Assembly: GCF_016026235.1 (NCBI RefSeq)
Contig: NZ_CP065613.1
Source of the DNA: Escherichia coli
GTDB taxonomy: Bacteria > Pseudomonadota > Gammaproteobacteria > Enterobacterales > Enterobacteriaceae
DNA length: 64,000 bases
Reading direction: 5' to 3' (one strand)
This document shows positions 4,896-51,602 of this stretch, piece by piece (position 1 is the first letter of the stretch; each line of letters opens with the position of its first letter). The translations under genes and the position numbers were made by a program. The notes under the pieces are model-generated. The model was not told the DNA's origin, made no database searches, and saw only the letters and a list, made by a program, of their open reading frames with translations.

Positions 4896-4910
4896 GACAG
4901 GAGTCGTCAA

Positions 4911-6050: not shown

Positions 6051-6064
6051 GTAAGGAGCTAAAA

Positions 6065-6471: not shown

Positions 6472-6492
6472 ATCAGAATTCTCTTTAAAAAA

Positions 6493-6524
6493 TTATGGGC
6501 CGCTCCAGGCCCATAAATTTTTAC
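6493..6524 (+). terminator. rho-independent terminator after the cyd operon
   Basis: hairpin atgggcc-gctcca-ggcccat followed by aaatttttac. Confidence 0.5.
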
Positions 6525-6620
6525 GCTCCCTTAACTTGCCCTCATTCCCAAACCTCAATCGCGCGCGTATAGTAGCAGCGTTTAAAAGCTCTAACTTTTG
6601 TTGCATTACCGGGATGTAAA

Positions 6621-7714
<1,094 letters not shown>

Positions 7715-7717
7715 GCC

Positions 7718-8146: not shown

Positions 8147-8210
8147 ACATCTGCGTTTCCCTTGCTTGAAAGAGAGCGGGTAACAGGCGAACAGTTTTTG
8201 GAAACCGAGA

Positions 8211-9476: not shown

Positions 9477-9608
9477 TCGCGATGTTGACTGTTCGGACGG
9501 TCAACATCAGGCACCGGTTGCCACGGGGTTCTGGTAGTTTTGTGTATTTTAGTTTGTTAACATTCTGCTAAATTATCGTGGGCCATCGGTCCAGATAAGG
9601 GAGATATG

Positions 9609-10901
9609 ATGAAGCAGGCATTACGAGTAGCATTTGGTTTTCTCATACTGTGGGCATCAGTTCTGCATGCTGAAGTCCGCATTGTGATCGACAGCGGTGT
9701 AGATTCCGGTCGTCCTATTGGTGTTGTTCCTTTCCAGTGGGCGGGGCCTGGTGCGGCACCTGAAGATATTGGCGGCATCGTTGCTGCTGACTTGCGTAAC
9801 AGCGGTAAATTTAATCCGTTAGATCGCGCTCGTCTGCCACAGCAGCCGGGTAGTGCGCAGGAAGTACAACCAGCTGCATGGTCCGCACTGGGCATTGACG
9901 CTGTAGTTGTCGGTCAGGTCACTCCGAATCCGGATGGTTCTTACAATGTTGCTTATCAACTTGTTGACACTGGCGGCGCACCGGGTACTGTACTTGCTCA
10001 GAACTCGTACAAAGTGAACAAGCAGTGGCTGCGTTATGCTGGTCATACCGCCAGTGATGAAGTGTTTGAAAAACTGACCGGCATTAAAGGTGCGTTCCGT
10101 ACCCGTATTGCCTACGTTGTTCAGACCAACGGCGGTCAGTTCCCGTATGAACTGCGCGTATCTGACTATGACGGTTACAACCAGTTTGTCGTTCACCGTT
10201 CACCGCAGCCGCTGATGTCTCCGGCGTGGTCACCAGACGGTTCTAAACTGGCTTATGTGACCTTCGAAAGCGGTCGTTCCGCGCTGGTTATTCAGACGCT
10301 GGCAAATGGCGCTGTACGTCAGGTGGCTTCATTCCCGCGTCACAACGGTGCACCTGCATTCTCGCCAGACGGCAGCAAACTGGCATTCGCCTTGTCGAAA
10401 ACCGGTAGTCTGAACCTGTACGTAATGGATTTGGCTTCTGGTCAGATCCGCCAGGTGACTGATGGTCGCAGTAACAATACCGAACCGACCTGGTTCCCGG
10501 ATAGCCAGAACCTGGCATTTACTTCTGACCAGGCCGGTCGTCCGCAGGTTTATAAAGTGAATATCAACGGCGGTGCGCCACAACGTATTACCTGGGAAGG
10601 TTCGCAGAACCAGGATGCGGATGTCAGCAGCGACGGTAAATTTATGGTAATGGTCAGCTCCAATGGTGGGCAGCAGCACATTGCCAAACAAGATCTGGCA
10701 ACGGGAGGCGTACAAGTTCTGTCGTCCACGTTCCTGGATGAAACGCCAAGTCTGGCACCTAACGGCACTATGGTAATCTACAGCTCTTCTCAGGGGATGG
10801 GATCCGTGCTGAATTTGGTTTCTACAGATGGGCGTTTCAAAGCGCGTCTTCCGGCAACTGATGGACAGGTCAAATTCCCTGCCTGGTCGCCGTATCTGTG
10901 A
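9609..10901 (+). CDS. tolB: Tol-Pal periplasmic beta-propeller protein TolB
   Basis: [21 protein letters not shown] signal peptide, 430 aa; ORF-track start is one codon upstream. Confidence 0.95.
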
Positions 10902-10911
10902 TAATAATTAA

Positions 10912-11457
<546 letters not shown>

Positions 11458-11466
11458 GAGAATTGC

Positions 11467-12258
11467 ATGAGCAGTAACTTCAGACATCAACTATTGAGTC
11501 TGTCGTTACTGGTTGGTATAGCGGCCCCCTGGGCCGCTTTTGCTCAGGCACCAATCAGTAGTGTCGGCTCAGGCTCGGTCGAAGACCGCGTCACTCAACT
11601 TGAGCGTATTTCTAATGCTCACAGCCAGCTTTTAACCCAACTCCAGCAACAACTTTCTGATAATCAATCCGATATTGATTCCCTGCGTGGTCAGATTCAG
11701 GAAAATCAGTATCAACTGAATCAGGTCGTGGAGCGGCAAAAGCAGATCCTGTTGCAGATCGACAGCCTCAGCAGCGGTGGTGCAGCGGCGCAATCAACCA
11801 GCAGCGATCAAAGCGGTGCGGCGGCATCAACGACGCCGACAGCTGATGCTGGTACTGCGAATGCTGGCGCGCCGGTGAAAAGCGGTGATGCAAACACGGA
11901 TTACAATGCAGCTATTGCGCTGGTGCAGGATAAATCCCGCCAGGATGACGCAATGGTGGCATTTCAGAATTTCATCAAAAATTACCCTGATTCAACTTAC
12001 CTGCCAAACGCCAATTATTGGCTGGGTCAGTTAAACTACAACAAGGGTAAAAAAGATGATGCGGCGTACTATTTTGCTTCGGTAGTGAAAAACTATCCGA
12101 AGTCACCAAAGGCTGCTGATGCGATGTTTAAAGTCGGCGTCATCATGCAGGACAAAGGTGACACCGCAAAAGCGAAAGCCGTATACCAGCAGGTTATCAG
12201 TAAATACCCTGGTACTGATGGCGCTAAACAGGCACAAAAACGTCTGAACGCGATGTAA
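11467..12258 (+). CDS. cpoB: cell division coordinator CpoB (YbgF), TPR protein
   Basis: 263 aa with signal peptide, coiled-coil region and TPR-like C-terminus; last gene of the tol-pal cluster. Confidence 0.9.
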   Translation: MSSNFRHQLLSLSLLVGIAAPWAAFAQAPISSVGSGSVEDRVTQLERISNAHSQLLTQLQQQLSDNQSDIDSLRGQIQENQYQLNQVVERQKQILLQIDSLSSGGAAAQSTSSDQSGAAASTTPTADAGTANAGAPVKSGDANTDYNAAIALVQDKSRQDDAMVAFQNFIKNYPDSTYLPNANYWLGQLNYNKGKKDDAAYYFASVVKNYPKSPKAADAMFKVGVIMQDKGDTAKAKAVYQQVISKYPGTDGAKQAQKRLNAM

Positions 12259-12266
12259 TGCATAAC

Positions 12267-12300
12267 ACACGACCAGAAGTCGCATTATTTCTGGTCGTGT
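12267..12300 (+). other. stem-loop downstream of cpoB (possible terminator/attenuator, no clear U-tract)
   Basis: cacgaccagaa-gtcgcatta-ttctggtcgtg inverted repeat. Confidence 0.35.
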
Positions 12301-12422
12301 CGTGCGAATCATAAGCAGTTGAGTGATCTGCATCGAAATTTTTGTTGCGCTCAAGTCTGAAATCAGTAATATATGCCGCCGTTGCCACGGGATATCAAAC
12401 AAACCGAAAGCAACGAAAAAGT

Positions 12423-12498
12423 GGGTCGTTAGCTCAGTTGGTAGAGCAGTTGACTTTTAATCAATTGGTCGCAGGTTCGAATCCTGCACGACCCACCA
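12423..12498 (+). tRNA. lysT: tRNA-Lys (anticodon UUU)
   Basis: GGGTCGTTAGCTCAGTTGGTAGAGCAGTTGACTTTTAATCAATTGGTCGCAGGTTCGAATCCTGCACGACCCACCA; cloverleaf and CCA end. Confidence 0.97.
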
Positions 12499-12525
12499 AT
12501 CGCTAAGGTGGAAGCGGTAGTAAAA

Positions 12526-12598
12526 CGTGAAGGATAACGTTGCATCAGCAACGGCCCGAAGGGCGAGACGAAGTCGAGTCATCCTGCACGACCCACCA
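12526..12598 (+). repeat. spacer repeat copy 1 ending in a duplicated tRNA-Lys 3'-end fragment (..gtcatcctgcacgacccacca)
   Basis: about 72 nt, near-identical to copies at 12815-12885 and 13119-13189; last ~19 nt match the T-arm/acceptor 3' end of tRNA-Lys. Confidence 0.8.
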
Positions 12599-12633
12599 CT
12601 AACATAGTTAGTTGTAGTATCCAGCGTAGTATT

Positions 12634-12709
12634 GGGTGATTAGCTCAGCTGGGAGAGCACCTCCCTTACAAGGAGGGGGTCGGCGGTTCGATCCCGTCAT
12701 CACCCACCA
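12634..12709 (+). tRNA. valT: tRNA-Val (anticodon UAC)
   Basis: GGGTGATTAGCTCAGCTGGGAGAGCACCTCCCTTACAAGGAGGGGGTCGGCGGTTCGATCCCGTCATCACCCACCA. Confidence 0.97.
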
Positions 12710-12711
12710 CC

Positions 12712-12787
12712 GGGTCGTTAGCTCAGTTGGTAGAGCAGTTGACTTTTAATCAATTGGTCGCAGGTTCGAATCCTGCACGACCCACCA
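12712..12787 (+). tRNA. lysW: tRNA-Lys (anticodon UUU)
   Basis: identical to lysT copy. Confidence 0.97.
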
Positions 12788-12814
12788 GTTTTAGCATCGA
12801 AGACAGATGTTAAG

Positions 12815-12885
12815 CGTGTAGGATAACGTTGCGTCAGCAACGGCCCGTAGGGCGAGCGAAGCGAGTCATCCTGCACGACCCACCA
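12815..12885 (+). repeat. spacer repeat copy 2 with tRNA-Lys 3'-end fragment
   Basis: cgtgtaggataacgttgcgtcagcaacggcccgtagggcgagcgaagcgagtcatcctgcacgacccacca. Confidence 0.8.
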
Positions 12886-12936
12886 CTAATTACGGTGGGT
12901 TCGGTGGAAGTAGTTTGTAGTATCCAGCGCAGTATC

Positions 12937-13012
12937 GGGTGATTAGCTCAGCTGGGAGAGCACCTCCCTTACAAGGAGGGGGTCGGCGGTTCGATCCCGT
13001 CATCACCCACCA
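12937..13012 (+). tRNA. valZ: tRNA-Val (anticodon UAC)
   Basis: identical to valT copy. Confidence 0.97.
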
Positions 13013-13015
13013 CTC

Positions 13016-13091
13016 GGGTCGTTAGCTCAGTTGGTAGAGCAGTTGACTTTTAATCAATTGGTCGCAGGTTCGAATCCTGCACGACCCACCA
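13016..13091 (+). tRNA. lysY: tRNA-Lys (anticodon UUU)
   Basis: identical to lysT copy. Confidence 0.97.
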
Positions 13092-13118
13092 ATTTTAACA
13101 TCAAACTCAGATGTTAAG

Positions 13119-13189
13119 CGTGAAGGATAACGTTGCGCCAGCAACGGCCCGAAGGGCGAGCGAAGCGAGTCATCCTGCACGACCCACCA
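13119..13189 (+). repeat. spacer repeat copy 3 with tRNA-Lys 3'-end fragment
   Basis: cgtgaaggataacgttgcgccagcaacggcccgaagggcgagcgaagcgagtcatcctgcacgacccacca. Confidence 0.8.
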
Positions 13190-13237
13190 ATCTTAAAGAT
13201 TGGCCCCGAGTAAAAATCTTTCAGGTAACACCCGTAT

Positions 13238-13313
13238 GGGTCGTTAGCTCAGTTGGTAGAGCAGTTGACTTTTAATCAATTGGTCGCAGGTTCGAATCCT
13301 GCACGACCCACCA
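13238..13313 (+). tRNA. lysZ: tRNA-Lys (anticodon UUU)
   Basis: identical to lysT copy. Confidence 0.97.
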
Positions 13314-13346
13314 TCCTGAATGATTAAAGCAGCATAATCCCGCAAG

Positions 13347-13422
13347 GGGTCGTTAGCTCAGTTGGTAGAGCAGTTGACTTTTAATCAATTGGTCGCAGGT
13401 TCGAATCCTGCACGACCCACCA
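13347..13422 (+). tRNA. lysQ: tRNA-Lys (anticodon UUU)
   Basis: identical to lysT copy. Confidence 0.97.
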
Positions 13423-28175: not shown

Positions 28176-29234
28176 ATGCTGGAACTGAATTTTTCCCAGA
28201 CGTTGGGCAACCATTGCCTGACTATTAATGAAACGCTGCCCGCCAATGGCATCACTGCTATCTTTGGCGTCTCCGGTGCCGGAAAAACTTCGCTGATTAA
28301 CGCCATCAGTGGACTGACGCGCCCGCAAAAAGGGAGGATTGTCCTCAATGGTCGGGTACTAAATGATGCCGAAAAAGGTATCTGCCTGACGCCAGAAAAG
28401 CGTCGCGTTGGCTATGTTTTTCAGGATGCGCGGCTGTTTCCGCATTACAAAGTGCGTGGCAATCTGCGCTACGGCATGGCGAAAAGCATGGTCGATCAGT
28501 TCGATAAGCTGGTGGCGCTTTTAGGCATTGAACCGTTGCTTGACCGTTTACCAGGCAGCCTGTCCGGAGGCGAAAAACAGCGCGTAGCGATTGGACGGGC
28601 TTTGCTGACGGCACCAGAATTGCTGTTGCTGGATGAACCGCTGGCGTCACTGGATATTCCGCGTAAACGCGAACTGTTGCCTTATCTGCAACGTCTGACG
28701 CGGGAAATCAACATCCCGATGTTGTATGTCAGCCATTCGCTGGATGAGATCCTCCATCTGGCAGACAGAGTGATGGTACTGGAAAACGGTCAGGTGAAAG
28801 CCTTTGGCGCGCTGGAAGAAGTCTGGGGTAGTAGCGTGATGAATCCGTGGCTGCCGAAAGAGCAACAAAGTAGCATTCTGAAAGTGACGGTACTTGAGCA
28901 TCATCCGCATTACGCGATGACTGCGCTGGCGCTGGGCGATCAGCATTTGTGGGTCAATAAGCTGGACGAACCGCTGCAAGCTGCGCTACGTATCCGCATT
29001 CAGGCTTCCGATGTTTCTCTGGTTTTACAACCGCCGCAGCAAACCAGCATTCGTAACGTATTGCGGGCAAAAGTTGTTAATAGTTATGACGACAACGGCC
29101 AGGTGGAAGTGGAGCTGGAAGTCGGCGGTAAAACGCTGTGGGCGCGTATCAGCCCGTGGGCCAGGGATGAACTGGCGATCAAACCTGGCCTGTGGCTGTA
29201 CGCGCAAATTAAAAGTGTGTCGATAACCGCCTGA
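28176..29234 (+). CDS. modC: molybdate ABC transporter ATPase
   Basis: 352 aa; Walker [10 protein letters not shown], signature LSGGEKQR, C-terminal Mop domain. Confidence 0.95.
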
Positions 29235-30053
29235 TTAAATCAGGTGGCTATAAATGAACTGGGCAATGCTGTCGGTGGTGTTATCACCAATCACAATATT
29301 GGCGCGCGCTTTTACCGCGTCATCGGCGTTGCCCATCGCCACGCCTGTACCAGCGGCTTCCAGCATACTGATATCATTAAAGTTATCGCCGAATGCCACG
29401 ACGTTTTCCATCGACCAACCTTGCGCCTCAACCCATTTCGTCAAACGTTTACCTTTGCTGTTGCCGCCGCGTGCAATATCAACCTGATCGTGCCAGGACC
29501 ATTCACACTCCAGTCCCAGTTCATGTTCGACATGCTTACCAAAATGCTGCAATTGCGGCAGGTCATCGTGCGTCAGGGCGAACTTCCATACGGCGTTAAC
29601 TTGTTGCGCCGTTTCAGCCAGAGAAGCGACTTGTGTGAAAGTCGGACGCTGTTCCGGCGGCAGGGTTTGCGCCCAGTTAGATGTGCGAATGACATGCCCG
29701 GTCGGGTGCTCATAGACCATTGCATCATCGACATACATCAGACCGTGAATGTGGTGTTCATTCAGCATCTCAATGAGTTGCAGGGCTTTAATAACGGGCA
29801 TTGGGTCCGCTTCCAGCACGGTTTTTGCATGATAATCATACAAATAGGTGCCATTACAGCAAATAGCAGGTGTATCCAGCGCCAGCGCCTGATAAAAAGG
29901 ATGAATAGCGACGTGATGGCGACCTGTGACGATGATTAATTGATAGCCTGCTTCGCGAGCGCGGGCCAGGGCTTCTATCGATGATGGAAGCAAGGTCTTT
30001 TTCGGGGTCAATAAGGTGCCGTCTAAGTCGAGAGCAATCACGCGTGTGGTCAT
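29235..30053 (-). CDS. ybhA: HAD-family sugar phosphatase YbhA (Cof-type)
   Basis: MTTRVIALDLDGTLL... DxD HAD motif; 272 aa; ORF-track N-terminal extension is not real. Confidence 0.9.
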   Translation of the reverse strand: MTTRVIALDLDGTLLTPKKTLLPSSIEALARAREAGYQLIIVTGRHHVAIHPFYQALALDTPAICCNGTYLYDYHAKTVLEADPMPVIKALQLIEMLNEHHIHGLMYVDDAMVYEHPTGHVIRTSNWAQTLPPEQRPTFTQVASLAETAQQVNAVWKFALTHDDLPQLQHFGKHVEHELGLECEWSWHDQVDIARGGNSKGKRLTKWVEAQGWSMENVVAFGDNFNDISMLEAAGTGVAMGNADDAVKARANIVIGDNTTDSIAQFIYSHLI

Positions 30054-30288
30054 GGCGTATTCCAGATTAAGGTTAAGAATTTTCGTCTGCGCGAATGGTA
30101 CACCGATACCACTATCGGACAAAATTCTGCGTTTTAATTCAGCATTCACCGCCAAAAGCGACTAATTTTAGCTGTTACAGTCAGTTGCTAAATGCAAAGG
30201 AGCATTCATGAAGCAAATGCCTCTTAGGAATTAATCCTTTATAATCAATTAATTACAAGTGGCGTTTCGAAATCATTCGAAATTAATT

Positions 30289-31335
30289 CTAAATGTCTTT
30301 CCATTCCCTCCCTCGTCCGTCACGGTATTTATCCGTCATGCTGGATGAACGATGTCCAAGGAGCGCCTGAGTGAAATCACTGCCTTTTTCTGCTGAGTGC
30401 AGGCGACCGGATAAACTTCGGATTTCATGAAATGGCGGTGGGTCACCTTCCCATTTCAATCCGGATGTGTCTCGGGCAATCCTGAACTGTGCTGCGATTG
30501 TCCTGGCTGTCTTCCCTCCGAGTAACTTTTCGTTTTTACCGTTTATTTTTTTCAAGTTATCCAGTACATCGGCAAGTGTTAAATTCAATCTGGAAATCGT
30601 GGTGGGGAGAGAAATGCGAATTTTTGCCCCTGTTTTTTGTTGTTCCACGTATAGCCTGCCATCTCTTATATCCTCCCATCTCATAGCCGCCAGATCTCCT
30701 TCGCGCTGTCCTGTTACCAGTGCAAGATCCATGCAAAGGCCGAACCATTCGTTCTGGACGTCTGCTATTTTCCTGATTAACAGATACTCGTCAATTAACA
30801 GTCGACTGCGCTTCACTTCAGTTCTGAATGGCTTGGTTGCAGAAGCTGGATCTTCTTCGGCAAGACCAGAAGCTATAGCTGTTTTAAAAATGTCTGATAA
30901 AAGCGCCCTGTACTGGTTAGCAATAGCAAATTTACTCCCAGCTGCTCTGATTTCAAGAAAGCTGTACACCTCCCTTATGCCTATATTTTTAACCGGAACA
31001 CCACCAAAGTATTCACTTATGATTTTCAACCTCTGGTTGTGTCTTTTCATGGTGTTTGTGCTTAATTGTCTACGCTCTATTTCATTTCTGAAATTTAATA
31101 TCAGCTCGCAGAATAATGTTACGCTATTACCTTTTATTCTATCCAGTAAGCTTATATGTTGCGTGGATAATAATTCCATATTTGCCGCAATAGCCTCATT
31201 AACTGCAATTCTTTTGTCTCTTCCGATTCCAAACTCCCTTCCTGAACGTGGGTCACGATAACTATAATATCCACCTCGATTGTAAAGATTGGGTGGTAGA
31301 TCACGTGTGTTTGAGTTTCTTCTTCGTCCGGTCAT
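30289..31335 (-). CDS. int: lambda-type tyrosine integrase
   Basis: MTGRRRNSNTRDLPPNLYNRGGYYSYRDPRSGREFGIGRDKRIAV... closely parallels lambda Int; C-terminal HxxR...Y catalytic region (LLGHRSSSMTDKYRD). Confidence 0.93.
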   Translation of the reverse strand: MTGRRRNSNTRDLPPNLYNRGGYYSYRDPRSGREFGIGRDKRIAVNEAIAANMELLSTQHISLLDRIKGNSVTLFCELILNFRNEIERRQLSTNTMKRHNQRLKIISEYFGGVPVKNIGIREVYSFLEIRAAGSKFAIANQYRALLSDIFKTAIASGLAEEDPASATKPFRTEVKRSRLLIDEYLLIRKIADVQNEWFGLCMDLALVTGQREGDLAAMRWEDIRDGRLYVEQQKTGAKIRISLPTTISRLNLTLADVLDNLKKINGKNEKLLGGKTARTIAAQFRIARDTSGLKWEGDPPPFHEIRSLSGRLHSAEKGSDFTQALLGHRSSSMTDKYRDGRGREWKDI

Positions 31336-31525
31336 TTCTGATTCTCTGCAAAAGCCCGCCAGTCGTTTGAGGTGTAATTTTTTTTGCTGACTCATGAAAT
31401 AAATATTCACGCCCATCCTTTATCGGTGGTGGAAAAATCTTACATTCTCGCACCCAGCGGCGAACCGTTTCTGGGCTTCGTGGACGTAACTGACGGGCGT
31501 TCCATTCTTTGAGTGTCAAATACAT
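31301..31525 (-). CDS. xis: excisionase
   Basis: MYLTLKEWNARQLRPRSPETVRRWVRECKIFPPPIKDGREYLFHESA... near-identical architecture to lambda Xis; overlaps int start. Confidence 0.92.
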   Translation of the reverse strand: MYLTLKEWNARQLRPRSPETVRRWVRECKIFPPPIKDGREYLFHESAKKITPQTTGGLLQRIRNDRTKKKLKHT

Positions 31526-44022: not shown

Positions 44023-44312
44023 TGGTGGATTTACTTAAAGCGGCGCGGGGGCAGATGTGCACCGTCAGAATTCCTGGCTACTGCAATCACGATCCGGAAA
44101 CGTCTGTGCTGGCGCATTACCGACTGGCGGGAACGTGCGGAACAGCGATAAAGCCACACGATATGCAGGCAGCGATTGCCTGTAGCTCGTGCCACGATTT
44201 AATCGACGGGCGGGTAAAAACCAGCGATTACACCAAAGAAGAATTACGCCTGATGCATGCAGAAGGTGTTTTTCGCACACAAGAAATCTGGAGAAAGGAG
44301 GGATATTTATGA
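44022..44312 (+). CDS. YbcO-like (DUF1364) putative nuclease
   Basis: MVDLLKAARGQMCTVRIPGYCNHDPETSVLAHYRLAGTCGTAIKPHDMQAAIACSSCHDLIDGR resembles DLP12 YbcO. Confidence 0.6.
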   Translation: MVDLLKAARGQMCTVRIPGYCNHDPETSVLAHYRLAGTCGTAIKPHDMQAAIACSSCHDLIDGRVKTSDYTKEELRLMHAEGVFRTQEIWRKEGYL

Positions 44313-44863
44313 TTTACCCAACGAATACAGGAAAAAGCGGAGAACACCTTCGTCTCACCACGCTGGAAAGTGTCTGGATTCAGGGAAAACTACGTATGTG
44401 GGGGCGCTGGTCGTATATTGGTGGCGGTAAGACGGGGAATATGTTTAACCTGATGTTGACCTCTAAAAAGCTGACAAAAACGGCAATTAACGAGGCGCTC
44501 CGGAGGATGAAAAAAGCAGGTCTGAACAAGTCTGAACTTGAGGCTTTTTTGCGGGATATGATTAACGGTAAGCAAAAGAGCTGGCTGGCGCATTGTACTG
44601 ATGCAGAGGCGTTATGTATTGATCGGGTCATAAGTGAGGTGCTGGCAGAGCATCCAGGATTGATTAGCGTCCTTCGGCAACGGTATGAGGGGCGGGGGAT
44701 GACCAAACGCAAAATGGCTGAACTGCTGAATGATGCACACCCGAAATGGAGTTTAAGAACCTGTGAAAGACGCATTGAGCATTGGCTAAAGGTGGCAGAA
44801 TTTATTTTGTACAAACCAATGGTTATGGCTTTTGGTATAGAGAAAAAAGTTATTGCTTTTTGA
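44309..44863 (+). CDS. late-gene antiterminator Q-like protein
   Basis: AGGAGG RBS before MIYPTNTGKSGEHL; located immediately upstream of a terminator, tRNAs and lysis genes. Confidence 0.5.
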   Translation: MIYPTNTGKSGEHLRLTTLESVWIQGKLRMWGRWSYIGGGKTGNMFNLMLTSKKLTKTAINEALRRMKKAGLNKSELEAFLRDMINGKQKSWLAHCTDAEALCIDRVISEVLAEHPGLISVLRQRYEGRGMTKRKMAELLNDAHPKWSLRTCERRIEHWLKVAEFILYKPMVMAFGIEKKVIAF

Positions 44864-45052: not shown

Positions 45053-45129
45053 GGCCCTTTAGCTCAGTTGGTCAGAGCGAGCGACTCATAATCGCCAGGT
45101 CGCTGGTTCAAGTCCAGCAAGGGCCACCA
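45053..45129 (+). tRNA. tRNA-Ile2 (anticodon CAU, lysidine-type; close relative of E. coli ileX)
   Basis: GGCCCTTTAGCTCAGTTGGTCAGAGCGAGCGACTCATAATCGCCAGGTCGCTGGTTCAAGTCCAGCAAGGGCCACCA; cannot fully exclude Met by sequence alone. Confidence 0.8.
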
Positions 45130-45130
45130 A

Positions 45131-45207
45131 CCACCACTAGCTCATCCGGATAGAGCATCAACCTTCTAAGTTGACGGTGCGAGGTTCGAGTCCTCGGTGG
45201 TGGGCCA
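45131..45207 (+). tRNA. tRNA-Arg (anticodon UCU)
   Basis: CCACCACTAGCTCATCCGGATAGAGCATCAACCTTCTAAGTTGACGGTGCGAGGTTCGAGTCCTCGGTGGTGGGCCA; cloverleaf folds, C1-G72 pair. Confidence 0.75.
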
Positions 45208-45209
45208 GC

Positions 45210-45285
<76 letters not shown>

Positions 45286-45288
45286 TAT

Positions 45289-45363
<75 letters not shown>

Positions 45364-46042: not shown

Positions 46043-46258
46043 ATGTATCAGATGGAAAAAATATCAACAGGCATTGCCTACGGCACCTCCGCCGGCAGTG
46101 CCGGCTACTGGTTTTTGCAGTGGTTGGATCAGGTCAGTCCATCACAGTGGGCTGCGATTGGTGTGCTGGGAAGTCTGCTTCTGGGGCTTCTGACTTATCT
46201 GACGAATCTGTATTTCAAAATAAGAGAAGATAAGCGTAAGGCTGCGAGAGGTGAATAA
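46043..46258 (+). CDS. S: phage-21-type pinholin S with dual start
   Basis: [71 protein letters not shown]; Met1 and Met4 give antiholin/holin starts; two TM segments. Confidence 0.85.
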
Positions 46259-46755
46259 TGTCGCCATCATTACGCAAGGCTGTTGCAGTTGCTATTGGTG
46301 GCGGGGCTGTTGCTATAGCATCTGTGTTAATCACTGGCCCAGGTGGTAACGATGGTCTGGAAGGTGTCAGCTACATACCATACAAAGATATCATTGGTGT
46401 ATGGACTGTATGTCACGGACACACCGGAAAAGACATCATGCCTGGTAAAACGTATACCGAAGCAGAATGCAAAGCTCTCCTGAATAAAGACCTTGCCACT
46501 GTCGCCAGACAAATTAACCCGTACATCAAAGTCGATATACCGGAAACAACGCGCGGCGCTCTTTACTCGTTCGTTTACAACGTGGGCGCTGGCAATTTCA
46601 GAACATCGACGCTTCTTCGCAAAATAAACCAGGGCGATATCAAAGGCGCATGTGACCAGCTACGTCGCTGGACATATGCTGGCGGTAAGCAATGGAAAGG
46701 GCTGATGACCCGTCGTGAGATTGAGCGTGAAGTCTGTTTGTGGGGGCAGCAATGA
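46258..46755 (+). CDS. R: SAR endolysin (lysozyme with N-terminal signal-arrest-release segment)
   Basis: weakly hydrophobic Gly/Ala-rich N-terminal segment [20 protein letters not shown] then lysozyme-like domain; ATG overlaps holin stop. Confidence 0.8.
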
Positions 46756-47222
46756 GCAGAGTCACCGCGATTATCTCCGCTCTGGTTATCTGCATCATCG
46801 TCTGCCTGTCATGGGCTGTTAATCATTACCGTGATAACGCCATTACCTACAAAGAGCAGCGCGACAAAAACGCAAGAGAACTGAAGCTGGCGAACGCAAC
46901 CATTACTGACATGCAGCAGCGCCAGCGTGCTGCTGATGCACTCGATGCTAAATACACGAAGGAGTTAGCCAATGCGAAAGCTGAAAATGATGCTCTTCGG
47001 CGCAAGCTTGATAATGGTGGTTGGGTGCTCGTCAAAGGAAAATGCCCTGTGCCATCCTCAGCCGAAACCTCCAGCGCCTCCGGCATGGGCAATGATGCCA
47101 CCGTCGAACTCTCTCCAGTTGCTGGACGAAACGTTCTCGGTATCCGGGACGGAATCATCAGCGACCAGACAGCATTGAGAATGCTTCAGGAGTACATCAG
47201 GATCCAATGCCTTGGGGGGTAG
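46752..47222 (+). CDS. Rz: i-spanin Rz
   Basis: [24 protein letters not shown]-terminal TM, coiled-coil periplasmic domain; follows endolysin. Confidence 0.8.
46972..47178 (+). CDS. Rz1: o-spanin Rz1, embedded in +1 frame within Rz
   Basis: [21 protein letters not shown] lipobox, proline-rich mature part ([18 protein letters not shown]). Confidence 0.8.
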
Positions 47223-47310
47223 CGGTAATTTTACTCATTATCCTTCAAATCAGATTCTGTTGTCAGAGGAATGGGGGAAGCTGGATTCGCAAGAGCTTTT
47301 TATGGGCAGT

Positions 47311-47823
47311 TTAGCTAAAAAAAGGCAACACGAAGCTAAAACTACCAACATAAAGTGCTGACCAGCTAGCAGCTGAAATCAGACTCACTGTATACACTTT
47401 CACTGGATGAAGTTGCAACATTCCTGCCACCAAAGGAGCAATATAACGCAGCACGGCGATAAAGCGCGAAGTGAAAAGTATTGACACAGAGTTATTTTGC
47501 AACTGAAGGCGAACCCGTTCTATTGTATTGGAACGGCTCGATATTATACATGCAAGTTGAGGGATATGCCCAATTATTATACCAAGATGGTAATTAACGA
47601 TAGTACCGCACCATGCGCCACTCATGACCGTGATTCCAGCTTCCCATGGTGAAAGAGTCGTCTTGCTGACTGTAATTACAGTGGCCATCATAATTGATGC
47701 TGGTGGCAATATCGCCGAAATGAGTAAAGTGGATTTTGTGAACGCTATTATAAAAAGAAGCCCCCATAGGCGATATGGATGAAGTACAAAATAGTTCATC
47801 AAAGCATTTATCCACTCCATCAA
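47311..47823 (-). CDS. YqaA/DedA-like inner-membrane protein (cargo gene between lysis and terminase)
   Basis: 170-aa polytopic protein; segment LISAILPPASIMMATVITVSKTTLSPWEAGITVMSGAWCGTIVNYHLG resembles the YqaA TLLPGNSEVVLVAM...GNSLGG region; opposite strand to flanking late genes. Confidence 0.45.
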   Translation of the reverse strand: MMEWINALMNYFVLHPYRLWGLLFIIAFTKSTLLISAILPPASIMMATVITVSKTTLSPWEAGITVMSGAWCGTIVNYHLGIIIGHIPQLACIISSRSNTIERVRLQLQNNSVSILFTSRFIAVLRYIAPLVAGMLQLHPVKVYTVSLISAASWSALYVGSFSFVLPFFS

Positions 47824-48017
47824 TGTCTTTCCTTCTGTGAATTTTTCTTTGCTATTTAACCGTGATACGACTTAATTTAGGCTTAAACACCTTACATTTA
47901 CAAGGTACTCCTGTGGGGGGCCCTGCCACGGAGCGTCGCAGGAGTGAGTGATGAGGAAGAATTAAAGCAACCTATTGTGACAGGCAGCGATAACAGTAAA
48001 TCACAGGAAGCATAATC

Positions 48018-48782
48018 ATGGCAAAACCGGACTGGGAGGCCATCGAATCGGCATACCGGGCCGGAGTCCTTAGCCTCCGTGATATAGGCGAGAAATACGG
48101 CGTTACAGAAGGGGCTATCAGGAAGAGGGCCAAAAAGCTTGGTTGGGCACGCAGTGGCGGTACGCAGGTTTGCAAAAATGGTACGCAAAAAAGGAAAGTG
48201 CGTACCAGCAGAAAGCCTGCCATTACTGGCCTTACACAAAAAAGTACGCAACTAAAAACAGAATCTACACCGGATACGAAACCGATACGCGGAATGCGTA
48301 CCGATCCCCCGACTAACCCATTCCAACCCGGTAACCAGCAGGCATTAAAACACGGTGGTTATGCCCGTCGCCTTCTGCTCAAAGATGAGGTGATAGAGGA
48401 CGCTAAAGCGTTGACGCTCGAGGACGAATTATTTCGCCTTCGTGCTAACAACCTTGTCGCTGCAGAGAATATTGGCCGGTGGTTGGTGTCGCTGGAAGAT
48501 GCTAATGGGGACCAGGAAAGGAAGATGCTGATTGAAAATATCAGCGCCGCCGAGAAAGCAATGATGCGCAATACAGTTCGTATTGAGTCCATCGTTGGCA
48601 CGCTTGCGACGGTAGGAAAAATATTTGCTGATACAGCCTACCGCAAGGCCGCCACTGATAAGGTGTCTCTGGAGGCTGATCGTCTTCGCCGTGATGCAGG
48701 TATTGATGATGGCAATGGAGAGCGTGACCTCAATGACTTCTACTCTGACATCCAAACCGACGCTGAATCCGGCTTTACGTAG
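48018..48782 (+). CDS. terminase small subunit
   Basis: N-terminal HTH-like region (VLSLRDIGEKYGVTEGAIRKRAKKLGW), basic linker; directly precedes large terminase. Confidence 0.55.
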   Translation: MAKPDWEAIESAYRAGVLSLRDIGEKYGVTEGAIRKRAKKLGWARSGGTQVCKNGTQKRKVRTSRKPAITGLTQKSTQLKTESTPDTKPIRGMRTDPPTNPFQPGNQQALKHGGYARRLLLKDEVIEDAKALTLEDELFRLRANNLVAAENIGRWLVSLEDANGDQERKMLIENISAAEKAMMRNTVRIESIVGTLATVGKIFADTAYRKAATDKVSLEADRLRRDAGIDDGNGERDLNDFYSDIQTDAESGFT

Positions 48783-50136
48783 TTTCTGGACTATGCGGGC
48801 ACGTAACAAAGTGCTTTATGGTGGTCGGTCATCGTCAAAATCATGGGATGCCGCTGGCATTGCCATATTTCTGTCGAATAAATACACCCTGCGTTTTTGT
48901 TGTGCCCGTCAGATCCAGAATAAAATCGAAGAGTCGGTGTATACCCTGCTCAAAATTCAGATAGACAGGTTTGGTCTGCGGCACCGTTTCCGTATTCTGA
49001 ACAACAAAATCATAAACCGGGTTACTGGCTCGGAATTTGTTTTTTATGGATTATGGCGCAACATCGAAGAAATTAAGTCACTGGAGGGGATCGATGTGTT
49101 GTGGCTGGAAGAAGCCCACGCACTGACGGAATACCAGTGGAAAATTCTGGAGCCAACGATCCGTAAAGAGGGTTCGGAATGCTGGTTCATATTCAACCCC
49201 GGACTTGTTACTGATTTCGTCTGGCGCAACTTCGTTGTTGATCCGCCCGAAGGCACTCTCATCCGCAAAATTAACTATGACGAAAATCCGTTTCTGTCTG
49301 ACACCATGCTTAAGGTTATCGACGCGGCGCGACGCCGTGATCCGGATGGTTTTAAACATGTGTATGAGGGCGTTCCGGAGTCTGATGATGATGCGGCAAT
49401 CATCAAACTGTCTTGGATAGAAGCCGCAGTGGATGCGCACAAAACGTTAAATTTCGAACCCAGTGGAAGAAAGCGTATTGGCTTTGACGTGGCTGACAGT
49501 GGTACAGATAAGTGCGCTAACGTTTACCGTCACGGATCCGTTGTTTTCTGGGCCGACGAATGGAAGGCCAAAGAAGATGAATTACTGAAGAGCTGCCAGC
49601 GTACTTATCAGGCGGCGCTGGAGCGTGAAGCAGATATTGTTTACGACTCTATCGGTGTTGGTGCGTCTGCCGGTGCTAAATTCTCTGAAATTAACGCTGA
49701 CCGGAAGAGCGAGAACGCATACGCGCGACGTGTGAATTACCAGAGGTTTAACGCCGGTGCTGGTGTGCATGAGCCAGATGACGAGTACAACGGCATCCCC
49801 AACAAAGACTTTTTCGCAAATCTTAAGGCTCAGGCATGGTGGCTGGTGGCTGACCGTTTCAGAAATACGTTTAACGCCATTAACAACGGAGAACAGTATC
49901 CTGTGGATGAGCTGATCAGCATAGATTCTCGTTGTCCGTTGCTTGAAAAGCTGAAACTGGAACTGACAACACCTCATCGTGATTTCGACCGTAACGGACG
50001 TGTGATGGTCGAAAGTAAAAAAGCCCTCGCAAAACGCGAGATACCGTCACCAAACGTTGCTGATGCATTCATTATGGCCTTCGCGCCAATCGATACATCG
50101 CTGGATATCTGGGAACAGCTGGGGAGACAGGCCTGA
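48733..50136 (+). CDS. terminase large subunit (start uncertain; alternative ATG at about 48793)
   Basis: Walker A-like YGGRSSSKSWDAAG near N-terminus, Walker B VLWLEEAH, nuclease-like C-terminal region. Confidence 0.6.
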   Translation: MTSTLTSKPTLNPALRSFWTMRARNKVLYGGRSSSKSWDAAGIAIFLSNKYTLRFCCARQIQNKIEESVYTLLKIQIDRFGLRHRFRILNNKIINRVTGSEFVFYGLWRNIEEIKSLEGIDVLWLEEAHALTEYQWKILEPTIRKEGSECWFIFNPGLVTDFVWRNFVVDPPEGTLIRKINYDENPFLSDTMLKVIDAARRRDPDGFKHVYEGVPESDDDAAIIKLSWIEAAVDAHKTLNFEPSGRKRIGFDVADSGTDKCANVYRHGSVVFWADEWKAKEDELLKSCQRTYQAALEREADIVYDSIGVGASAGAKFSEINADRKSENAYARRVNYQRFNAGAGVHEPDDEYNGIPNKDFFANLKAQAWWLVADRFRNTFNAINNGEQYPVDELISIDSRCPLLEKLKLELTTPHRDFDRNGRVMVESKKALAKREIPSPNVADAFIMAFAPIDTSLDIWEQLGRQA

Positions 50137-51602
50137 TGGCACGAAACAAACAAGCCCTGCGGCGAACTGTGCAGGCCACAGCTGATGGTTATGAGAATTT
50201 TATTGCCCGCGTAGGGATGCAGACACCTAACCAGCACTCAGCATCCACCTACCGGGCTAATTTCACCAGTCGTAACCGCATGCTGGTGGAATGGTCCTAT
50301 CGTTCATCCTGGATCATCGGCGAAGCAGTCGATGCTATCCCGGATGATATGACCCGCAAAGGCATTCGCATCACTTCGGAAATTGATGCAAAAGATCGTG
50401 GCATTCTCGAATCACAACTGGATGAGTTGCAAATCTGGGATGCGCTGAATGACGTGCTGAAATGGTCGCGCCTCTACGGCGGCGCGGTGGGTTTCATCAT
50501 GATTGAGGGGCAGGCACCAATGACCCCGCTGCGACCCGAAACCATCGGTAAGGGCAAGTTTAAGGGGATTCTCCCGCTCGACCGCTGGATGGTCGACCCG
50601 GCACTGACCCGCCGCATTAAAGATATGGGGCCGGACCTGGGTAAACCTGAGTTTTACGATGTGGTGACCACAGCAACGGGAATTCCTGCCTGGCGCATTC
50701 ATCACAGTCGCCTGATTCGCTTTGATGGCGTCACGTTGCCATTTCAGCAGAAGATGACCGAGAACGAATGGGGAATGTCGGTTGTAGAGCGTATCTGGGA
50801 TCGTCTTACCGCGTTCGACAGCGCTACTGTCGGCGCGGCGCAGCTGGTCTACAAGGCGCATTTGCGTACCTACAGCGTGGAGAAGCTACGCGAGCTTATC
50901 GCACTTGGTGGTCCTGCGTATGAAGCGTTGCTGAAGAATATCGACCTGATTCGACAGTTCCAGAGTAATGAAGGCATGACGCTCATGGACTCGCGGGATA
51001 AGTTTGAAACCCATCAGTACAGCTTCAGTGGTCTGGATGACATCCTTTCGCAGTTTGCAGAACAGATTAGTGGCGCTGTTGGTATCCCACTGGTGCGGTT
51101 GTTCGGACAGTCCCCGAAAGGATTTTCTACCGGTGATGCAGACCTTGCCAACTATTACGATCGCATCAGTTCGTTGCAGGAGAGGCGTTTACGTCTTCCG
51201 GTGCGGCGGATACTGGACATCATGCATCGTTCGGAACTTGGCAAGCCGCTGCCGGACGATTTCACGTTTGAGTTTAACCCGCTCTGGCAAATGTCTGATG
51301 TCGATCGCTCAACGGTGGCGTTAAACACCACCAACGCAATCAGTACGGCGCTGGGTGATGGTCTGATGACACTGAAAGCCGCTATGACTGATTTGCGAGA
51401 AAATTCTGACGTAACCGGCATCGGGGCATCCATTACCGACGAGGACATCGAGAATGCCGAAGATGAAGCGCCGCCCGGCATCGGCGAACCTGATGACGAA
51501 CCGCAGGAGCCGTCAGGCGGAAATCCGGTATCGAACCAGCCTACGCAGGATAGCGAGGGCGGTCGGAGACATCGTAAATGGTCGCTACGATGGTTCAAAT
51601 GA
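50136..51602 (+). CDS. portal protein
   Basis: 488-aa protein directly after terminase with acidic C-terminus; synteny. Confidence 0.5.
   Translation: MARNKQALRRTVQATADGYENFIARVGMQTPNQHSASTYRANFTSRNRMLVEWSYRSSWIIGEAVDAIPDDMTRKGIRITSEIDAKDRGILESQLDELQIWDALNDVLKWSRLYGGAVGFIMIEGQAPMTPLRPETIGKGKFKGILPLDRWMVDPALTRRIKDMGPDLGKPEFYDVVTTATGIPAWRIHHSRLIRFDGVTLPFQQKMTENEWGMSVVERIWDRLTAFDSATVGAAQLVYKAHLRTYSVEKLRELIALGGPAYEALLKNIDLIRQFQSNEGMTLMDSRDKFETHQYSFSGLDDILSQFAEQISGAVGIPLVRLFGQSPKGFSTGDADLANYYDRISSLQERRLRLPVRRILDIMHRSELGKPLPDDFTFEFNPLWQMSDVDRSTVALNTTNAISTALGDGLMTLKAAMTDLRENSDVTGIGASITDEDIENAEDEAPPGIGEPDDEPQEPSGGNPVSNQPTQDSEGGRRHRKWSLRWFK

What the first reader, a model, noticed from the sequence alone, without database searches (positions are those of the whole stretch)
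47311..47823. YqaA/DedA-like membrane protein encoded on the opposite strand between Rz/Rz1 and terminase
This is the classic position of lysogenic-conversion genes such as bor in lambda. The 170-aa polytopic protein has a segment resembling the chromosomal YqaA/DedA-family core and is transcribed against the late operon, implying expression in the lysogen. It may modify envelope properties or exclude superinfecting phage.
Basis: partly seen in the sequence, partly recalled or inferred. Interest (0 to 1): 0.45.

Follow-up and report, generated by a model that had tools for sequence, protein, structure and literature searches.

The report
Prophage-borne DedA-family membrane protein gene
A real gene for a small inner-membrane protein of the DedA family sits as a self-contained add-on ("moron") in a Shigella/E. 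coli lambdoid prophage, in the slot where lambda carries bor. It belongs to a small, unstudied DedA branch in which a normally essential glutamate is replaced by lysine.

Summary
The ORF is real: 47311-47820 on the minus strand, 169 aa from the ATG. It matches Pfam VTT/DedA (E=1.5e-13), its predicted fold matches only DedA proteins, and dN/dS is 0.14-0.38. It lies antisense between the spanin genes Rz/Rz1 and the small terminase gene. GC is 0.40-0.43 against about 0.52 in the flanks. A Klebsiella sister phage lacks it. A roughly 600-bp cassette (80 bp upstream plus the ORF) recurs in the same slot of two other phage types. It is not YqaA-like; the closest K-12 paralogue is YabI (25% identity). 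It belongs to a tight Enterobacterales clade (12 representatives among 1.84 billion proteins). That clade keeps the two arginines that bind substrate phosphate but has Lys in place of the essential Glu39, and it lacks the C-terminal helix. No sigma-70 consensus promoter was found. A conserved upstream footprint (TGTTKA-N5-GATTGA-N12-TTAAAT) has the geometry of PhoP boxes, including the box of borD in the same slot of prophage DLP12. Chromosomal relatives sit beside smvA (cationic-biocide efflux) or mgtE. My best reading is an envelope-related lysogenic-conversion gene. Expression and biochemical function are untested. PGAP already annotates the family; the clade and its phage carriage appear undescribed.

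The parts
47311..47820 (-). Coding sequence of the short DedA/VTT-domain protein: 169 aa from ATG 47820-47818, stop codon 47313-47311. PGAP starts one codon earlier, at TTG 47823.
   Evidence: ORF. Pfam PF09335 E=1.5e-13. PGAP 'DedA family protein'. dN/dS 0.14-0.38. AF2 model with 3 TM helices, 2 re-entrant hairpins and an amphipathic helix. Fold matches are all DedA.
47828..47836 (-). Shine-Dalgarno-like GAAGGAAA, 7-8 nt before the ATG. A GGAG core is conserved in the homologous cassettes.
   Evidence: Read from the sequence; alignment of eight upstream regions.
47854..47859 (-). TTAAAT, a candidate -10 hexamer. It is invariant in all eight upstream regions aligned. The predicted transcription start is near 47846.
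   Evidence: The geometry is compared with K-12 PhoP-activated promoters. Inferred, not mapped.
47871..47889 (-). Direct-repeat element TGTTTA-AGCCT-AAATTA(AG). Relatives have TGTTKA-N5-GATTGA, followed by 12 nt and then TTAAAT, which is PhoP-box-like. The window copy has a 1-nt insertion and reads TTTAAG-CCTAA-ATTAAG, 11/12 matches to the PmrA/BasR box YTTAAK-N5-YTTAAK.
   Evidence: Conservation is concentrated in the three hexamers (Fisher p=0.002). The architecture appears in 137 of 200000 shuffles. A regulator is inferred only.
47301..47903 (-). Mobile cassette shared at 77-82% nucleotide identity with DedA genes in other phages and prophage remnants: about 80 bp upstream, the ORF, and about 10 bp downstream.
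   Evidence: blastn against L003, L023 and L008.
47213..48010 (.). Variable 'moron slot' of the prophage. Homology to the DedA-less Klebsiella phage ST16-OXA48phi5.2 stops at 47212 and resumes at 48011. That phage has 208 bp here.
   Evidence: GC is 0.40-0.43 inside against 0.52-0.54 in the flanks.
46043..47222 (+). Late lysis cassette upstream of the slot: holin 46043-46258, endolysin 46258-46755, Rz 46740-47222, Rz1 46972-47178.
   Evidence: PHROG hits phrog_9876/20, phrog_7, phrog_13 and phrog_3198.
48018..50136 (+). Packaging genes downstream of the slot: small terminase 48018-48782 and large terminase about 48733-50136. The late transcript has to cross the DedA cassette antisense to reach them.
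   Evidence: phrog_370 and phrog_3717/phrog_2. No terminator-like site on either strand in 46900-48200.

Best explanation
Shown. The locus is a self-contained moron of about 600 bp in the variable slot between the spanin and terminase genes of a lambdoid prophage with a contractile tail. It encodes a 169-aa inner-membrane protein of the DedA superfamily. The protein has the VTT core: three transmembrane helices and two re-entrant hairpins. It belongs to a small clade restricted to Enterobacterales that derives from the YabI-like part of COG0586. The clade keeps the two arginines of the second hairpin (R119/R125, equivalent to YqjA R130/R136) and the invariant Trp. It has Lys where canonical DedA proteins have the essential, putatively proton-binding Glu (E39), and it lacks the C-terminal oligomerisation helix.

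Inferred. The gene is transcribed on its own in the lysogen, antisense to the late operon. Transcription would start at a weak -10 (TTAAAT) that depends on an OmpR/PhoB-type response regulator bound to a direct repeat at the -35 position. The repeat looks like a PhoP box in the Citrobacter copies and like a PmrA/BasR box in this Shigella/E. coli copy. The protein inserts in the inner membrane and uses its cationic pocket (K29, R119, R125) to bind or move an anionic lipid head group. The most likely substrate is undecaprenyl phosphate or a related carrier or phospholipid. Because the Glu is missing, this would happen without the usual proton coupling. The outcome would be a change in carrier-lipid-dependent envelope chemistry or cation homeostasis that helps the lysogen tolerate cationic antimicrobials, low Mg2+ or biocides. 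That makes it a lysogenic-conversion gene of the same logic as bor/borD.

Approximate probabilities: DedA-family moron 0.9; independently expressed in the lysogen 0.6; envelope or cationic-stress benefit 0.35; PhoP/PmrA control 0.3.
For: Family and fold: Pfam VTT E=1.5e-13; fold matches are only DedA/VTT proteins; helix pattern of the AF2 model fits the YqjA topology model.

Selection and spread: dN/dS 0.14-0.38; at least 1000 contigs in Shigella flexneri, S. sonnei, S. dysenteriae and E. coli. The gene is intact in an E. coli prophage that is otherwise decaying through IS1 and IS2 insertions and an internal stop.

Moron status: GC dip; absent from Klebsiella phage ST16-OXA48phi5.2, which has the same lysis and terminase genes. 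The cassette is in the same slot and orientation in a GpA-terminase lambdoid phage and in a Terminase_2/Terminase_6N phage. borD occupies that slot in DLP12.

Clade signature: K29 and LPPAS are invariant, and R119, R125 and W153 are invariant. Among the 150 best of 4903 hits, every protein scoring 126 bits or more (where that segment is present) has K, and every full-length protein below has E or, rarely, D or Q.

Roles of those residues in canonical proteins: E39, D51, R130 and R136 are essential in YqjA and cluster at the hairpin tips (Todor et al.). The UptA arginines contribute to C55-P binding, and in the UptA model E32 bonds to R118.

Promoter footprint: the three hexamers are conserved across copies whose synonymous sites are saturated. 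The geometry is the same as the K-12 phoP, mgtA, mgrB and borD boxes. Chance rate is 7e-4 and Fisher p=0.002. The BasR-like box in the window copy appears in 0.6% of shuffles.

Physiological theme in chromosomal relatives: immediately downstream of TetR plus an SmvA-family efflux pump in Hafnia and Entomohabitans; beside mgtE with an M-box riboswitch in Arsenophonus and a metagenomic enterobacterium; retained in the 0.57-Mb genome of Candidatus Riesia.

Literature: DedA proteins are needed for Ara4N lipid A modification and polymyxin resistance. A YabI-type DedA is up-regulated in an mgrB-deleted Enterobacter strain. SmvA exports cationic biocides.
Against: There is no expression data of any kind. 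The sigma-70 scan finds no promoter upstream of 47823 and no terminator after the gene.

The PhoP- and PmrA-like boxes were recognised post hoc. The promoter-proximal half-site is conserved as GATTGA, not TGTTTA. The window copy has 3 mismatches to the PhoP box and a 1-nt insertion.

The published S. flexneri 301 phoPQ microarray paper mentions no DedA or phage gene, though I could not map the locus tag.

Loss of the essential Glu and of the C-terminal helix could mean a different activity from any characterised DedA. The first hairpin is the least confident part of the model (pLDDT below 50 for residues 25-38).

The NCBIfam equivalog cut-offs for DedA and UptA are missed by a wide margin.

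The synteny with smvA and mgtE concerns distant clade members (40-50% identity), not the phage copies.
Confidence: 0.55

Rival explanations
1. Superinfection exclusion or phage defence. The inner-membrane protein, made by the lysogen, would block DNA entry of incoming phages. Alternatively it would alter a surface receptor that depends on undecaprenyl phosphate (O-antigen, ECA).
For: Orientation and moron position are typical of prophage genes expressed in lysogens. It is a polytopic inner-membrane protein. It recurs in three unrelated phage backbones.
Against: There is no PADLOC match. The clade is mostly chromosomal and looks like housekeeping: core in Serratia and Hafnia, and kept in the reduced genome of Candidatus Riesia. 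Its neighbours there are efflux and Mg2+ transport genes, not defence islands. No known Sie protein is a DedA, as far as my literature searches show.
Confidence: 0.15
2. Decoy or dominant-negative DedA. With the proton-binding Glu replaced, the protein would bind undecaprenyl phosphate (or host DedA partners) without transporting it. It would thereby throttle host envelope synthesis for the phage's benefit, for example by tuning lysis or slowing competing pathways.
For: E39 is essential in canonical proteins and is Lys here, while the phosphate-binding arginines are kept. The oligomerisation helix is missing.
Against: The same Lys is invariant in chromosomal, vertically inherited members, including an obligate endosymbiont. 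This argues for an active physiological protein rather than an inhibitor. The gene is antisense to the late operon, so it is unlikely to be made during lytic growth. Purifying selection is ordinary.
Confidence: 0.08
3. Silent passenger. The gene was captured from a Citrobacter-like chromosome and is carried along without expression or function in Shigella/E. coli.
For: No consensus promoter or terminator. The window copy carries a 1-nt insertion and substitutions in the conserved upstream repeat. The gene is rare in complete E. coli genomes, 5 of 5426.
Against: The reading frame is intact on at least 1000 contigs and in a decaying prophage. dN/dS between phage copies is 0.25-0.38, clearly below 1. 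The upstream hexamers are conserved while the spacers drift. Insertion into the same slot happened independently in three phage types.
Confidence: 0.1
4. Lysis-timing accessory. The DedA-like protein would modulate membrane potential or holin triggering as part of the adjacent lysis cassette.
For: It lies next to the holin/endolysin/spanin genes in every phage copy. Canonical DedA mutants have phenotypes related to proton-motive force.
Against: It is on the opposite strand in all phage contexts, so it is not part of the Q-dependent late transcript. It is absent from sister phages with nearly identical lysis genes. Most clade members are not next to lysis genes at all.
Confidence: 0.04

Closest known systems
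E. coli YabI and the other COG0586 DedA proteins (YqjA, YghB, DedA; B. subtilis UptA; P. aeruginosa PA4029)
   Same: Same Pfam VTT domain and predicted core fold. YabI is the best K-12 match. The two arginines of the second re-entrant hairpin and the Trp that contacts them are conserved. As in YabI-like proteins, the position of D51 is not acidic.
   Different: Only about 24% identity. Lys replaces the essential Glu of the first hairpin across the whole clade. The C-terminal helix implicated in oligomerisation is absent. NCBIfam equivalog thresholds are far from met: 31 against 236 bits for DedA and 19.9 against 250 for UptA. The gene is carried by phages.
bor of lambda / borD of prophage DLP12 (lysogenic-conversion moron)
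   Same: Same genomic slot and antisense orientation, directly after a homologous holin-endolysin-Rz/Rz1 cassette. A small gene with a response-regulator-type box about 65-69 nt before the ATG; borD has a perfect PhoP box at -69.
   Different: The proteins are unrelated. Bor is an outer-membrane lipoprotein, whereas this is a polytopic inner-membrane DedA protein. The box here is degenerate: 2-3 mismatches to the PhoP consensus.
   Same: Similar small size (142 against 169 aa) and the same superfamily.
   Different: No detectable pairwise similarity. According to Todor et al., the YqaA type keeps the acidic residues and lacks the arginine pair. This protein shows the opposite pattern.
smvR-smvA loci of Enterobacterales (cationic-biocide efflux)
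   Same: In Hafnia and Entomohabitans a member of this Lys-type DedA clade lies 23-88 bp downstream of an SmvA-family pump gene with a divergent TetR regulator.
   Different: The phage copies have lost that context and carry only their own 80-bp upstream region. The link to biocide tolerance is by synteny only.

Membership tests
DedA superfamily (Pfam PF09335, VTT domain) | Significant match to the VTT-domain profile over nearly its full length | tested here: met
   E=1.5e-13, model positions 3-121 of 123, residues 42-162. phrog_33251 E=3.4e-7.
DedA superfamily (Pfam PF09335, VTT domain) | Core fold: transmembrane helices plus two re-entrant hairpins and an amphipathic helix | tested here: met
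   AF2 model, pLDDT 72, with the matching helix pattern. The top 50 AFDB50 hits are all DedA/VTT, TM-score 0.55-0.73. No solved structure exists for comparison.
COG0586-type DedA (YghB/YqjA/UptA; proposed proton-driven undecaprenyl-phosphate flippases) | Acidic residue at the tip of the first re-entrant hairpin (YqjA/YghB E39; UptA E32) | tested here: not met
   K29 occupies this column in all clade members. E is found in 122 of the other aligned rows.
COG0586-type DedA (YghB/YqjA/UptA; proposed proton-driven undecaprenyl-phosphate flippases) | Second acidic residue (D51) | tested here: not met
   A41 within the LPPAS motif. This column is also S/A/T/V in YabI and the nearest neighbours, so it is not specific to the clade.
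COG0586-type DedA (YghB/YqjA/UptA; proposed proton-driven undecaprenyl-phosphate flippases) | Two arginines at the tip of the second re-entrant hairpin (R130/R136) | tested here: met
   R119 and R125 are invariant in alignment A1; in the wider clade, two of the representatives from the 1.84-billion-protein search have K at R119.
COG0586-type DedA (YghB/YqjA/UptA; proposed proton-driven undecaprenyl-phosphate flippases) | Curated NCBIfam equivalog score (PRK10847 DedA; UptA models) | tested here: not met
   31 bits against a cut-off of 236; 19.9 against 250; 16.3 against 300.
COG0586-type DedA (YghB/YqjA/UptA; proposed proton-driven undecaprenyl-phosphate flippases) | Undecaprenyl-phosphate binding or translocation activity | not testable with these tools
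   Needs native mass spectrometry, amphomycin/MX2401 sensitivity or complementation assays.
COG1238-type DedA (YqaA) | Sequence affinity to YqaA; acidic pair present and arginine pair absent | tested here: not met
   No phmmer or blastp hit to YqaA. The residue pattern is the reverse.
Phage moron (independent add-on transcription unit) | Present or absent between otherwise homologous phages, with deviant base composition | tested here: met
   Missing in Klebsiella phage ST16-OXA48phi5.2, with breakpoints at 47212 and 48011. GC 0.40-0.43 against about 0.52. The same cassette occurs in two other phage backbones.
Phage moron (independent add-on transcription unit) | Own promoter and terminator | tested here: inconclusive
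   No sigma-70 consensus promoter or intrinsic terminator. An 80-bp upstream region travels with the ORF and carries conserved hexamers.
Phage moron (independent add-on transcription unit) | Expression from the repressed prophage | not testable with these tools
   No transcript data are available here.
PhoP regulon (or PmrA/BasR regulon) | Direct-repeat box about 12 nt upstream of the -10 hexamer | tested here: inconclusive
   Relatives: 2-3 mismatches to KGTTTA-N5-KGTTTA, with 12 nt to TTAAAT, the same geometry as phoP, mgtA, mgrB and borD. Window copy: 3 mismatches to the PhoP box and 1 mismatch to YTTAAK-N5-YTTAAK. The match was recognised post hoc.
Known anti-phage defence systems (PADLOC) | Match to any PADLOC model | tested here: not met
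   0 families at E up to 1.

The most novel reading that the evidence does not exclude
Temperate phages spread a proton-uncoupled (Glu to Lys) DedA variant among Shigella, E. coli and Citrobacter. It would be switched on by PhoP/PmrA-type envelope-stress regulators. It would change the handling of undecaprenyl phosphate or pyrophosphate, and with it lipid A or O-antigen modification. The lysogen would gain tolerance to polymyxins, host cationic peptides or cationic biocides. This would be a new class of lysogenic-conversion factor and a natural mechanistic variant of the DedA transporter.
Probability: 0.12. Interest if true: 0.65.

Novelty: new variant of a known kind. Interest (0 to 1): 0.4.

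Why it matters
DedA proteins have recently been identified as undecaprenyl-phosphate and phospholipid flippases and as determinants of polymyxin resistance. No structure is solved and the coupling mechanism is unknown. This clade is a natural, conserved variant: it reverses the charge of the putative proton-binding Glu and keeps the phosphate-binding arginines. That makes it a ready-made probe of the mechanism.

The gene is also carried by prophages that are very common in Shigella, in the classic lysogenic-conversion slot. If it affects tolerance to cationic peptides or biocides, it would be a phage-borne envelope fitness factor in an important pathogen.

If it does nothing measurable, the finding is simply one more annotated "DedA family protein" moron.

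Tried and rejected
- Sigma-70 promoter and intrinsic terminator scans of 46900-48200: nothing upstream or downstream of the gene.
- RNA folding of the 3' flank and of the GC-rich imperfect palindrome at 47906-47946: no better than shuffles, z = +0.6 and -0.85/-0.61.
- A hairpin reading of the conserved upstream element (GGCTC-GATT-GAGCC in L003): rejected, because other copies do not keep the pairing.
- Rfam at E up to 1: only two sub-threshold chance hits.
- PADLOC: none.
- PDB by sequence and by fold: no DedA structure to compare.
- Deposited phage genomes (50,697 records): no close copy. The best tblastn hits are about 30% identity or less, and several look like host DNA.
- Plasmids: only two Citrobacter freundii 'plasmid' records, which carry chromosomal genes (icd, purB) and a prophage remnant.
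- Literature: no paper on a prophage DedA, none containing the protein accession, and none combining DedA with moron and lysogen.
- The S. flexneri 301 phoPQ microarray paper lists no DedA or phage gene, but I could not map the SF locus tag, so this is uninformative.
- One viral contig (L045) is Mu-like, with the gene beyond the repressor end. It may be host flank, so I did not count it as a fourth phage context.
- The MFS gene upstream of the Serratia member is unrelated to SmvA, so 'MFS-DedA' is not a universal pairing.
Full report
**Observation.** The window holds an ORF at 47311-47823 on the minus strand, 170 aa from a TTG. The next codon is ATG (47820), preceded by GAAGGAAA at a normal distance. 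All relatives are 167-173 aa and begin MEW/MxW, so 169 aa from the ATG is the likelier product.

PHROG searches confirm the surroundings on the plus strand:
- Q-like antiterminator, 44189-44863
- holin, 46043-46258
- endolysin, 46258-46755
- Rz, 46740-47222, with Rz1 embedded at 46972-47178
- the antisense ORF
- small terminase, 48018-48782
- large terminase, about 48733-50136
- portal, 50136-51602

A four-tRNA cluster lies between the Q-like gene and the holin.

**Is it a real gene?** Yes. Pfam gives VTT_dom (PF09335, the DedA/SNARE-associated domain) at E=1.5e-13, covering 119 of 123 model positions. NCBIfam's DedA model hits at E=2e-7 but far below its equivalog cut-off. PGAP calls the identical protein (WP_011069285.1) 'DedA family protein' in five complete E. 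coli genomes.

An AlphaFold2 model (pLDDT 72) has the helix pattern of the published YqjA topology model: three membrane-spanning helices, two re-entrant hairpins and an amphipathic helix. All 50 best AFDB50 matches are DedA/VTT proteins. No DedA structure exists in the PDB copy.

Pairwise dN/dS among five copies is 0.14-0.38. The exact protein is on at least 1000 public contigs named Shigella flexneri, S. sonnei, S. dysenteriae or E. coli.

**It is a moron.**
- GC falls to 0.40-0.43 across the gene, against 0.52-0.54 on both sides.
- Klebsiella phage ST16-OXA48phi5.2 shares the lysis and terminase genes but has only 208 bp in between. Homology stops at 47212 and resumes at 48011.
- None of 50,697 deposited phage genomes has a close copy, and only 5 of 5426 complete E. 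coli genomes carry it.
- A compact cassette (window 47301-47903: about 80 bp upstream, the ORF, about 10 bp downstream) recurs at 77-82% nucleotide identity elsewhere.
- It recurs between lysis and terminase genes, again antisense, in a GpA-terminase lambdoid prophage of Citrobacter.
- It recurs in the same position in a third phage type with Terminase_2/Terminase_6N.
- It also lies in prophage remnants next to icd/DinI in Citrobacter.
- IMG/VR holds 13 loci.
- In K-12 prophage DLP12, whose essD-rrrD-rzpD/rzoD cassette is homologous to this one, the same slot holds borD, also antisense.

**Which DedA?** Not YqaA. Against the eight K-12 paralogues the order is YabI (39.9 bits, 24.6% identity), DedA, YqjA, YohD, with nothing for YqaA or YdjX/YdjZ.

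A profile of the close relatives was searched against 1.84 billion representative proteins. It finds 4903 DedA proteins but only 12 at E of 1e-30 or better. The clade members are about 170 aa long and come from these taxa:
- Hafnia/Obesumbacterium
- Entomohabitans
- Serratia, where it is core
- Proteus hauseri
- Arsenophonus
- Candidatus Riesia
- Enterobacter
- Citrobacter

The signature is sharp. Every member has F-x-K-S-T...L-P-P-A-S, and R119, R125 and W153 are invariant in the alignment with the K-12 paralogues; two distant clade representatives have K at R119. Nearly all non-clade proteins among the 150 best hits have Glu in the Lys column, with the same 10-residue spacing to the conserved Pro. 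That Glu is E39 of YqjA/YghB. [quoted passage not shown] In the UptA model it bonds to the second arginine, and the arginines contribute to C55-P binding.

The D51 column is already non-acidic in YabI and the nearest neighbours, so only the Glu-to-Lys change is specific to the clade. The clade also ends before the C-terminal helix that cross-links YqjA protomers. In the scheme of Todor et al. the residue pattern fits none of the three subfamilies. By sequence it is COG0586, with the basic pair kept and the acidic residue reversed.

**Expression signals.** The consensus scan finds no sigma-70 promoter upstream and no terminator on either strand. Folding of the 3' flank is unremarkable. The absence of terminators is at least compatible with the late transcript crossing the cassette to reach the terminase genes.

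Eight upstream regions were aligned, including copies whose synonymous sites are saturated against each other (dS 1.4-1.8). They share three conserved hexamers separated by drifting spacers: TGTT(T/G)A - N5 - GATT(G/A)A - N12 - TTAAAT, 65-69 nt before the ATG. In the hexamers 15 of 18 positions are invariant, against 5 of 17 in the spacers (Fisher p=0.002).

This is the geometry of PhoP-activated promoters that I extracted from K-12 for calibration:
- phoP: GGTTTA-N5-TGTTTA-N12-CATAAT
- mgtA
- mgrB, whose box has 2 mismatches
- borD: a perfect box at -69, then 12 nt, then TACGAT

The architecture occurs in 137 of 200000 shuffles of the Citrobacter-phage upstream region and nowhere else in the 64-kb window.

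The window copy differs by a 1-nt insertion and two G-to-A changes. These weaken the PhoP match to 3 mismatches but create TTTAAG-CCTAA-ATTAAG. That is 11/12 to the PmrA/BasR box, and it lies 11 nt from TTAAAT. The K-12 pmrR box lies 12 nt and the eptA box about 12-13 nt from a -10-like hexamer; for arnB the distance is unclear. Such a box appears in 0.6% of shuffles.

These readings are post hoc and unverified. I treat 'response-regulator-dependent promoter' as an inference, at roughly 0.3 for PhoP or PmrA specifically.

**Hints to function from chromosomal relatives.**
- In Hafnia and Entomohabitans the gene lies 23-88 bp downstream of an SmvA-family efflux pump gene with a divergent TetR regulator. 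SmvA/SmvR is the cationic-biocide efflux system.
- In Arsenophonus and in a metagenomic enterobacterium it is adjacent to mgtE, which has its M-box riboswitch. In Hafnia, mgtE is 2.6 kb away.
- Candidatus Riesia, with a 0.57-Mb genome, keeps it just after rpsU-dnaG-rpoD. This argues for an active housekeeping protein rather than an inert decoy.

The literature links DedA proteins to undecaprenyl-phosphate recycling, Ara4N modification of lipid A, polymyxin resistance, biocide and alkaline tolerance, and divalent-cation homeostasis. It also reports a YabI-type DedA up-regulated in an mgrB-deleted, colistin-resistant Enterobacter strain.

**Best explanation and rivals.** I conclude that this is a lysogenic-conversion moron encoding a Lys-type DedA inner-membrane protein.

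Shown: family, fold, clade signature, purifying selection, moron behaviour, and the slot shared with bor/borD.

Inferred:
- independent, probably stress-regulated transcription in the lysogen;
- binding or movement of an anionic carrier lipid through a cationic pocket (K29, R119, R125) without proton coupling;
- a benefit under cationic-antimicrobial, low-Mg2+ or biocide stress.

Rivals, with my confidence:
- superinfection exclusion, 0.15;
- silent passenger, 0.10;
- decoy or dominant-negative DedA, 0.08;
- lysis-timing accessory, 0.04.

Each is weakened by the chromosomal housekeeping distribution, the selection data or the antisense orientation. None is excluded experimentally.

**Novelty and score.** The family assignment is already in public annotation. 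No paper I could find describes a prophage-borne DedA or this Lys-type clade. I rate it a new variant of a known kind, with moderate interest (0.4). It is a clean natural variant for probing DedA mechanism and a possible envelope fitness factor carried by phages in Shigella. Nothing here is surprising enough, or close enough to proven function, to rank higher.

Noticed in passing
L046 (E. coli K-12 DLP12) 8601-9184; compare window 47213-48010: K-12 borD sits antisense in the same slot, after a homologous lysis cassette. It has a perfect PhoP box (TGTTTAGGGTTTGTTTA) 69 nt before its ATG and 12 nt before TACGAT. Two unrelated morons in this slot may therefore share a regulatory logic.
   Followed up: partly
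L026 3512-5522; L028 3357-5516: In Hafnia alvei and Entomohabitans teleogrylli the Lys-type DedA gene follows a TetR-regulated SmvA-family efflux pump gene by 23-88 bp. This looks like a smvR-smvA-dedA unit, and I found no description of it.
   Followed up: partly
L018 4512-6537 (M-box 5574-5743); L020 6001-8050 (M-box 6810-6979); L026 1352-2365: mgtE, with its M-box riboswitch, lies next to the Lys-type DedA gene in Arsenophonus and in a metagenomic enterobacterium. It lies 2.6 kb away in Hafnia. The orientation differs between loci.
   Followed up: partly
L052 6001-6516: The louse endosymbiont Candidatus Riesia pediculicola (0.57-Mb genome) retains a Lys-type DedA directly after rpsU-dnaG-rpoD. 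Riesia sp. GBBU lists two accessions for it. I could not check whether it is the only DedA there.
   Followed up: no
L001 (E. coli FDAARGOS_943) 2995-12373: The same prophage is decaying in this strain: IS1 lies next to the tRNA cluster, IS2 splits the large terminase gene, and the head-morphogenesis gene has an internal stop. The DedA gene is intact and 100% identical.
   Followed up: no
window 45053-45363: The prophage carries a four-tRNA cluster between the Q-like antiterminator and the holin gene. The anticodons are CAT, TCT (Arg), TGT (Thr) and TCC (Gly). PGAP calls the CAT tRNA tRNA-Ile in the E. coli copy.
   Followed up: no
window 12423-13422 and 28176-31416: The host part of the window has a seven-gene tRNA-Lys/tRNA-Val array, then modC (28176-29234) and a YbhA-type pyridoxal phosphatase gene (29235-30155). 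The prophage begins right after, with an integrase-sized ORF (30289-31416) that has no NCBIfam match at the E<=1e-10 limit used.
   Followed up: partly
window 47906-47946: A GC-rich imperfect palindrome (CTCCTGTGGGGGGCCCTGCCACGGAGCGTCGCAGGAG) lies between the DedA cassette and the small terminase gene. It is shared neither with the other DedA cassettes nor with the Klebsiella sister phage. Its folding energy is not better than that of shuffles.
   Followed up: partly
L045 179-4507: One IMG/VR contig carries a 73%-identical copy next to the repressor/transposase end of a Mu-like element. It is unclear whether the gene is inside the element or in host flank.
   Followed up: partly
window 48625-48782: The longest ORF for the large terminase starts at a TTG and overlaps the small terminase gene by 158 nt. 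PGAP in the E. coli copy starts it at the equivalent of 48733, which is more plausible.
   Followed up: no
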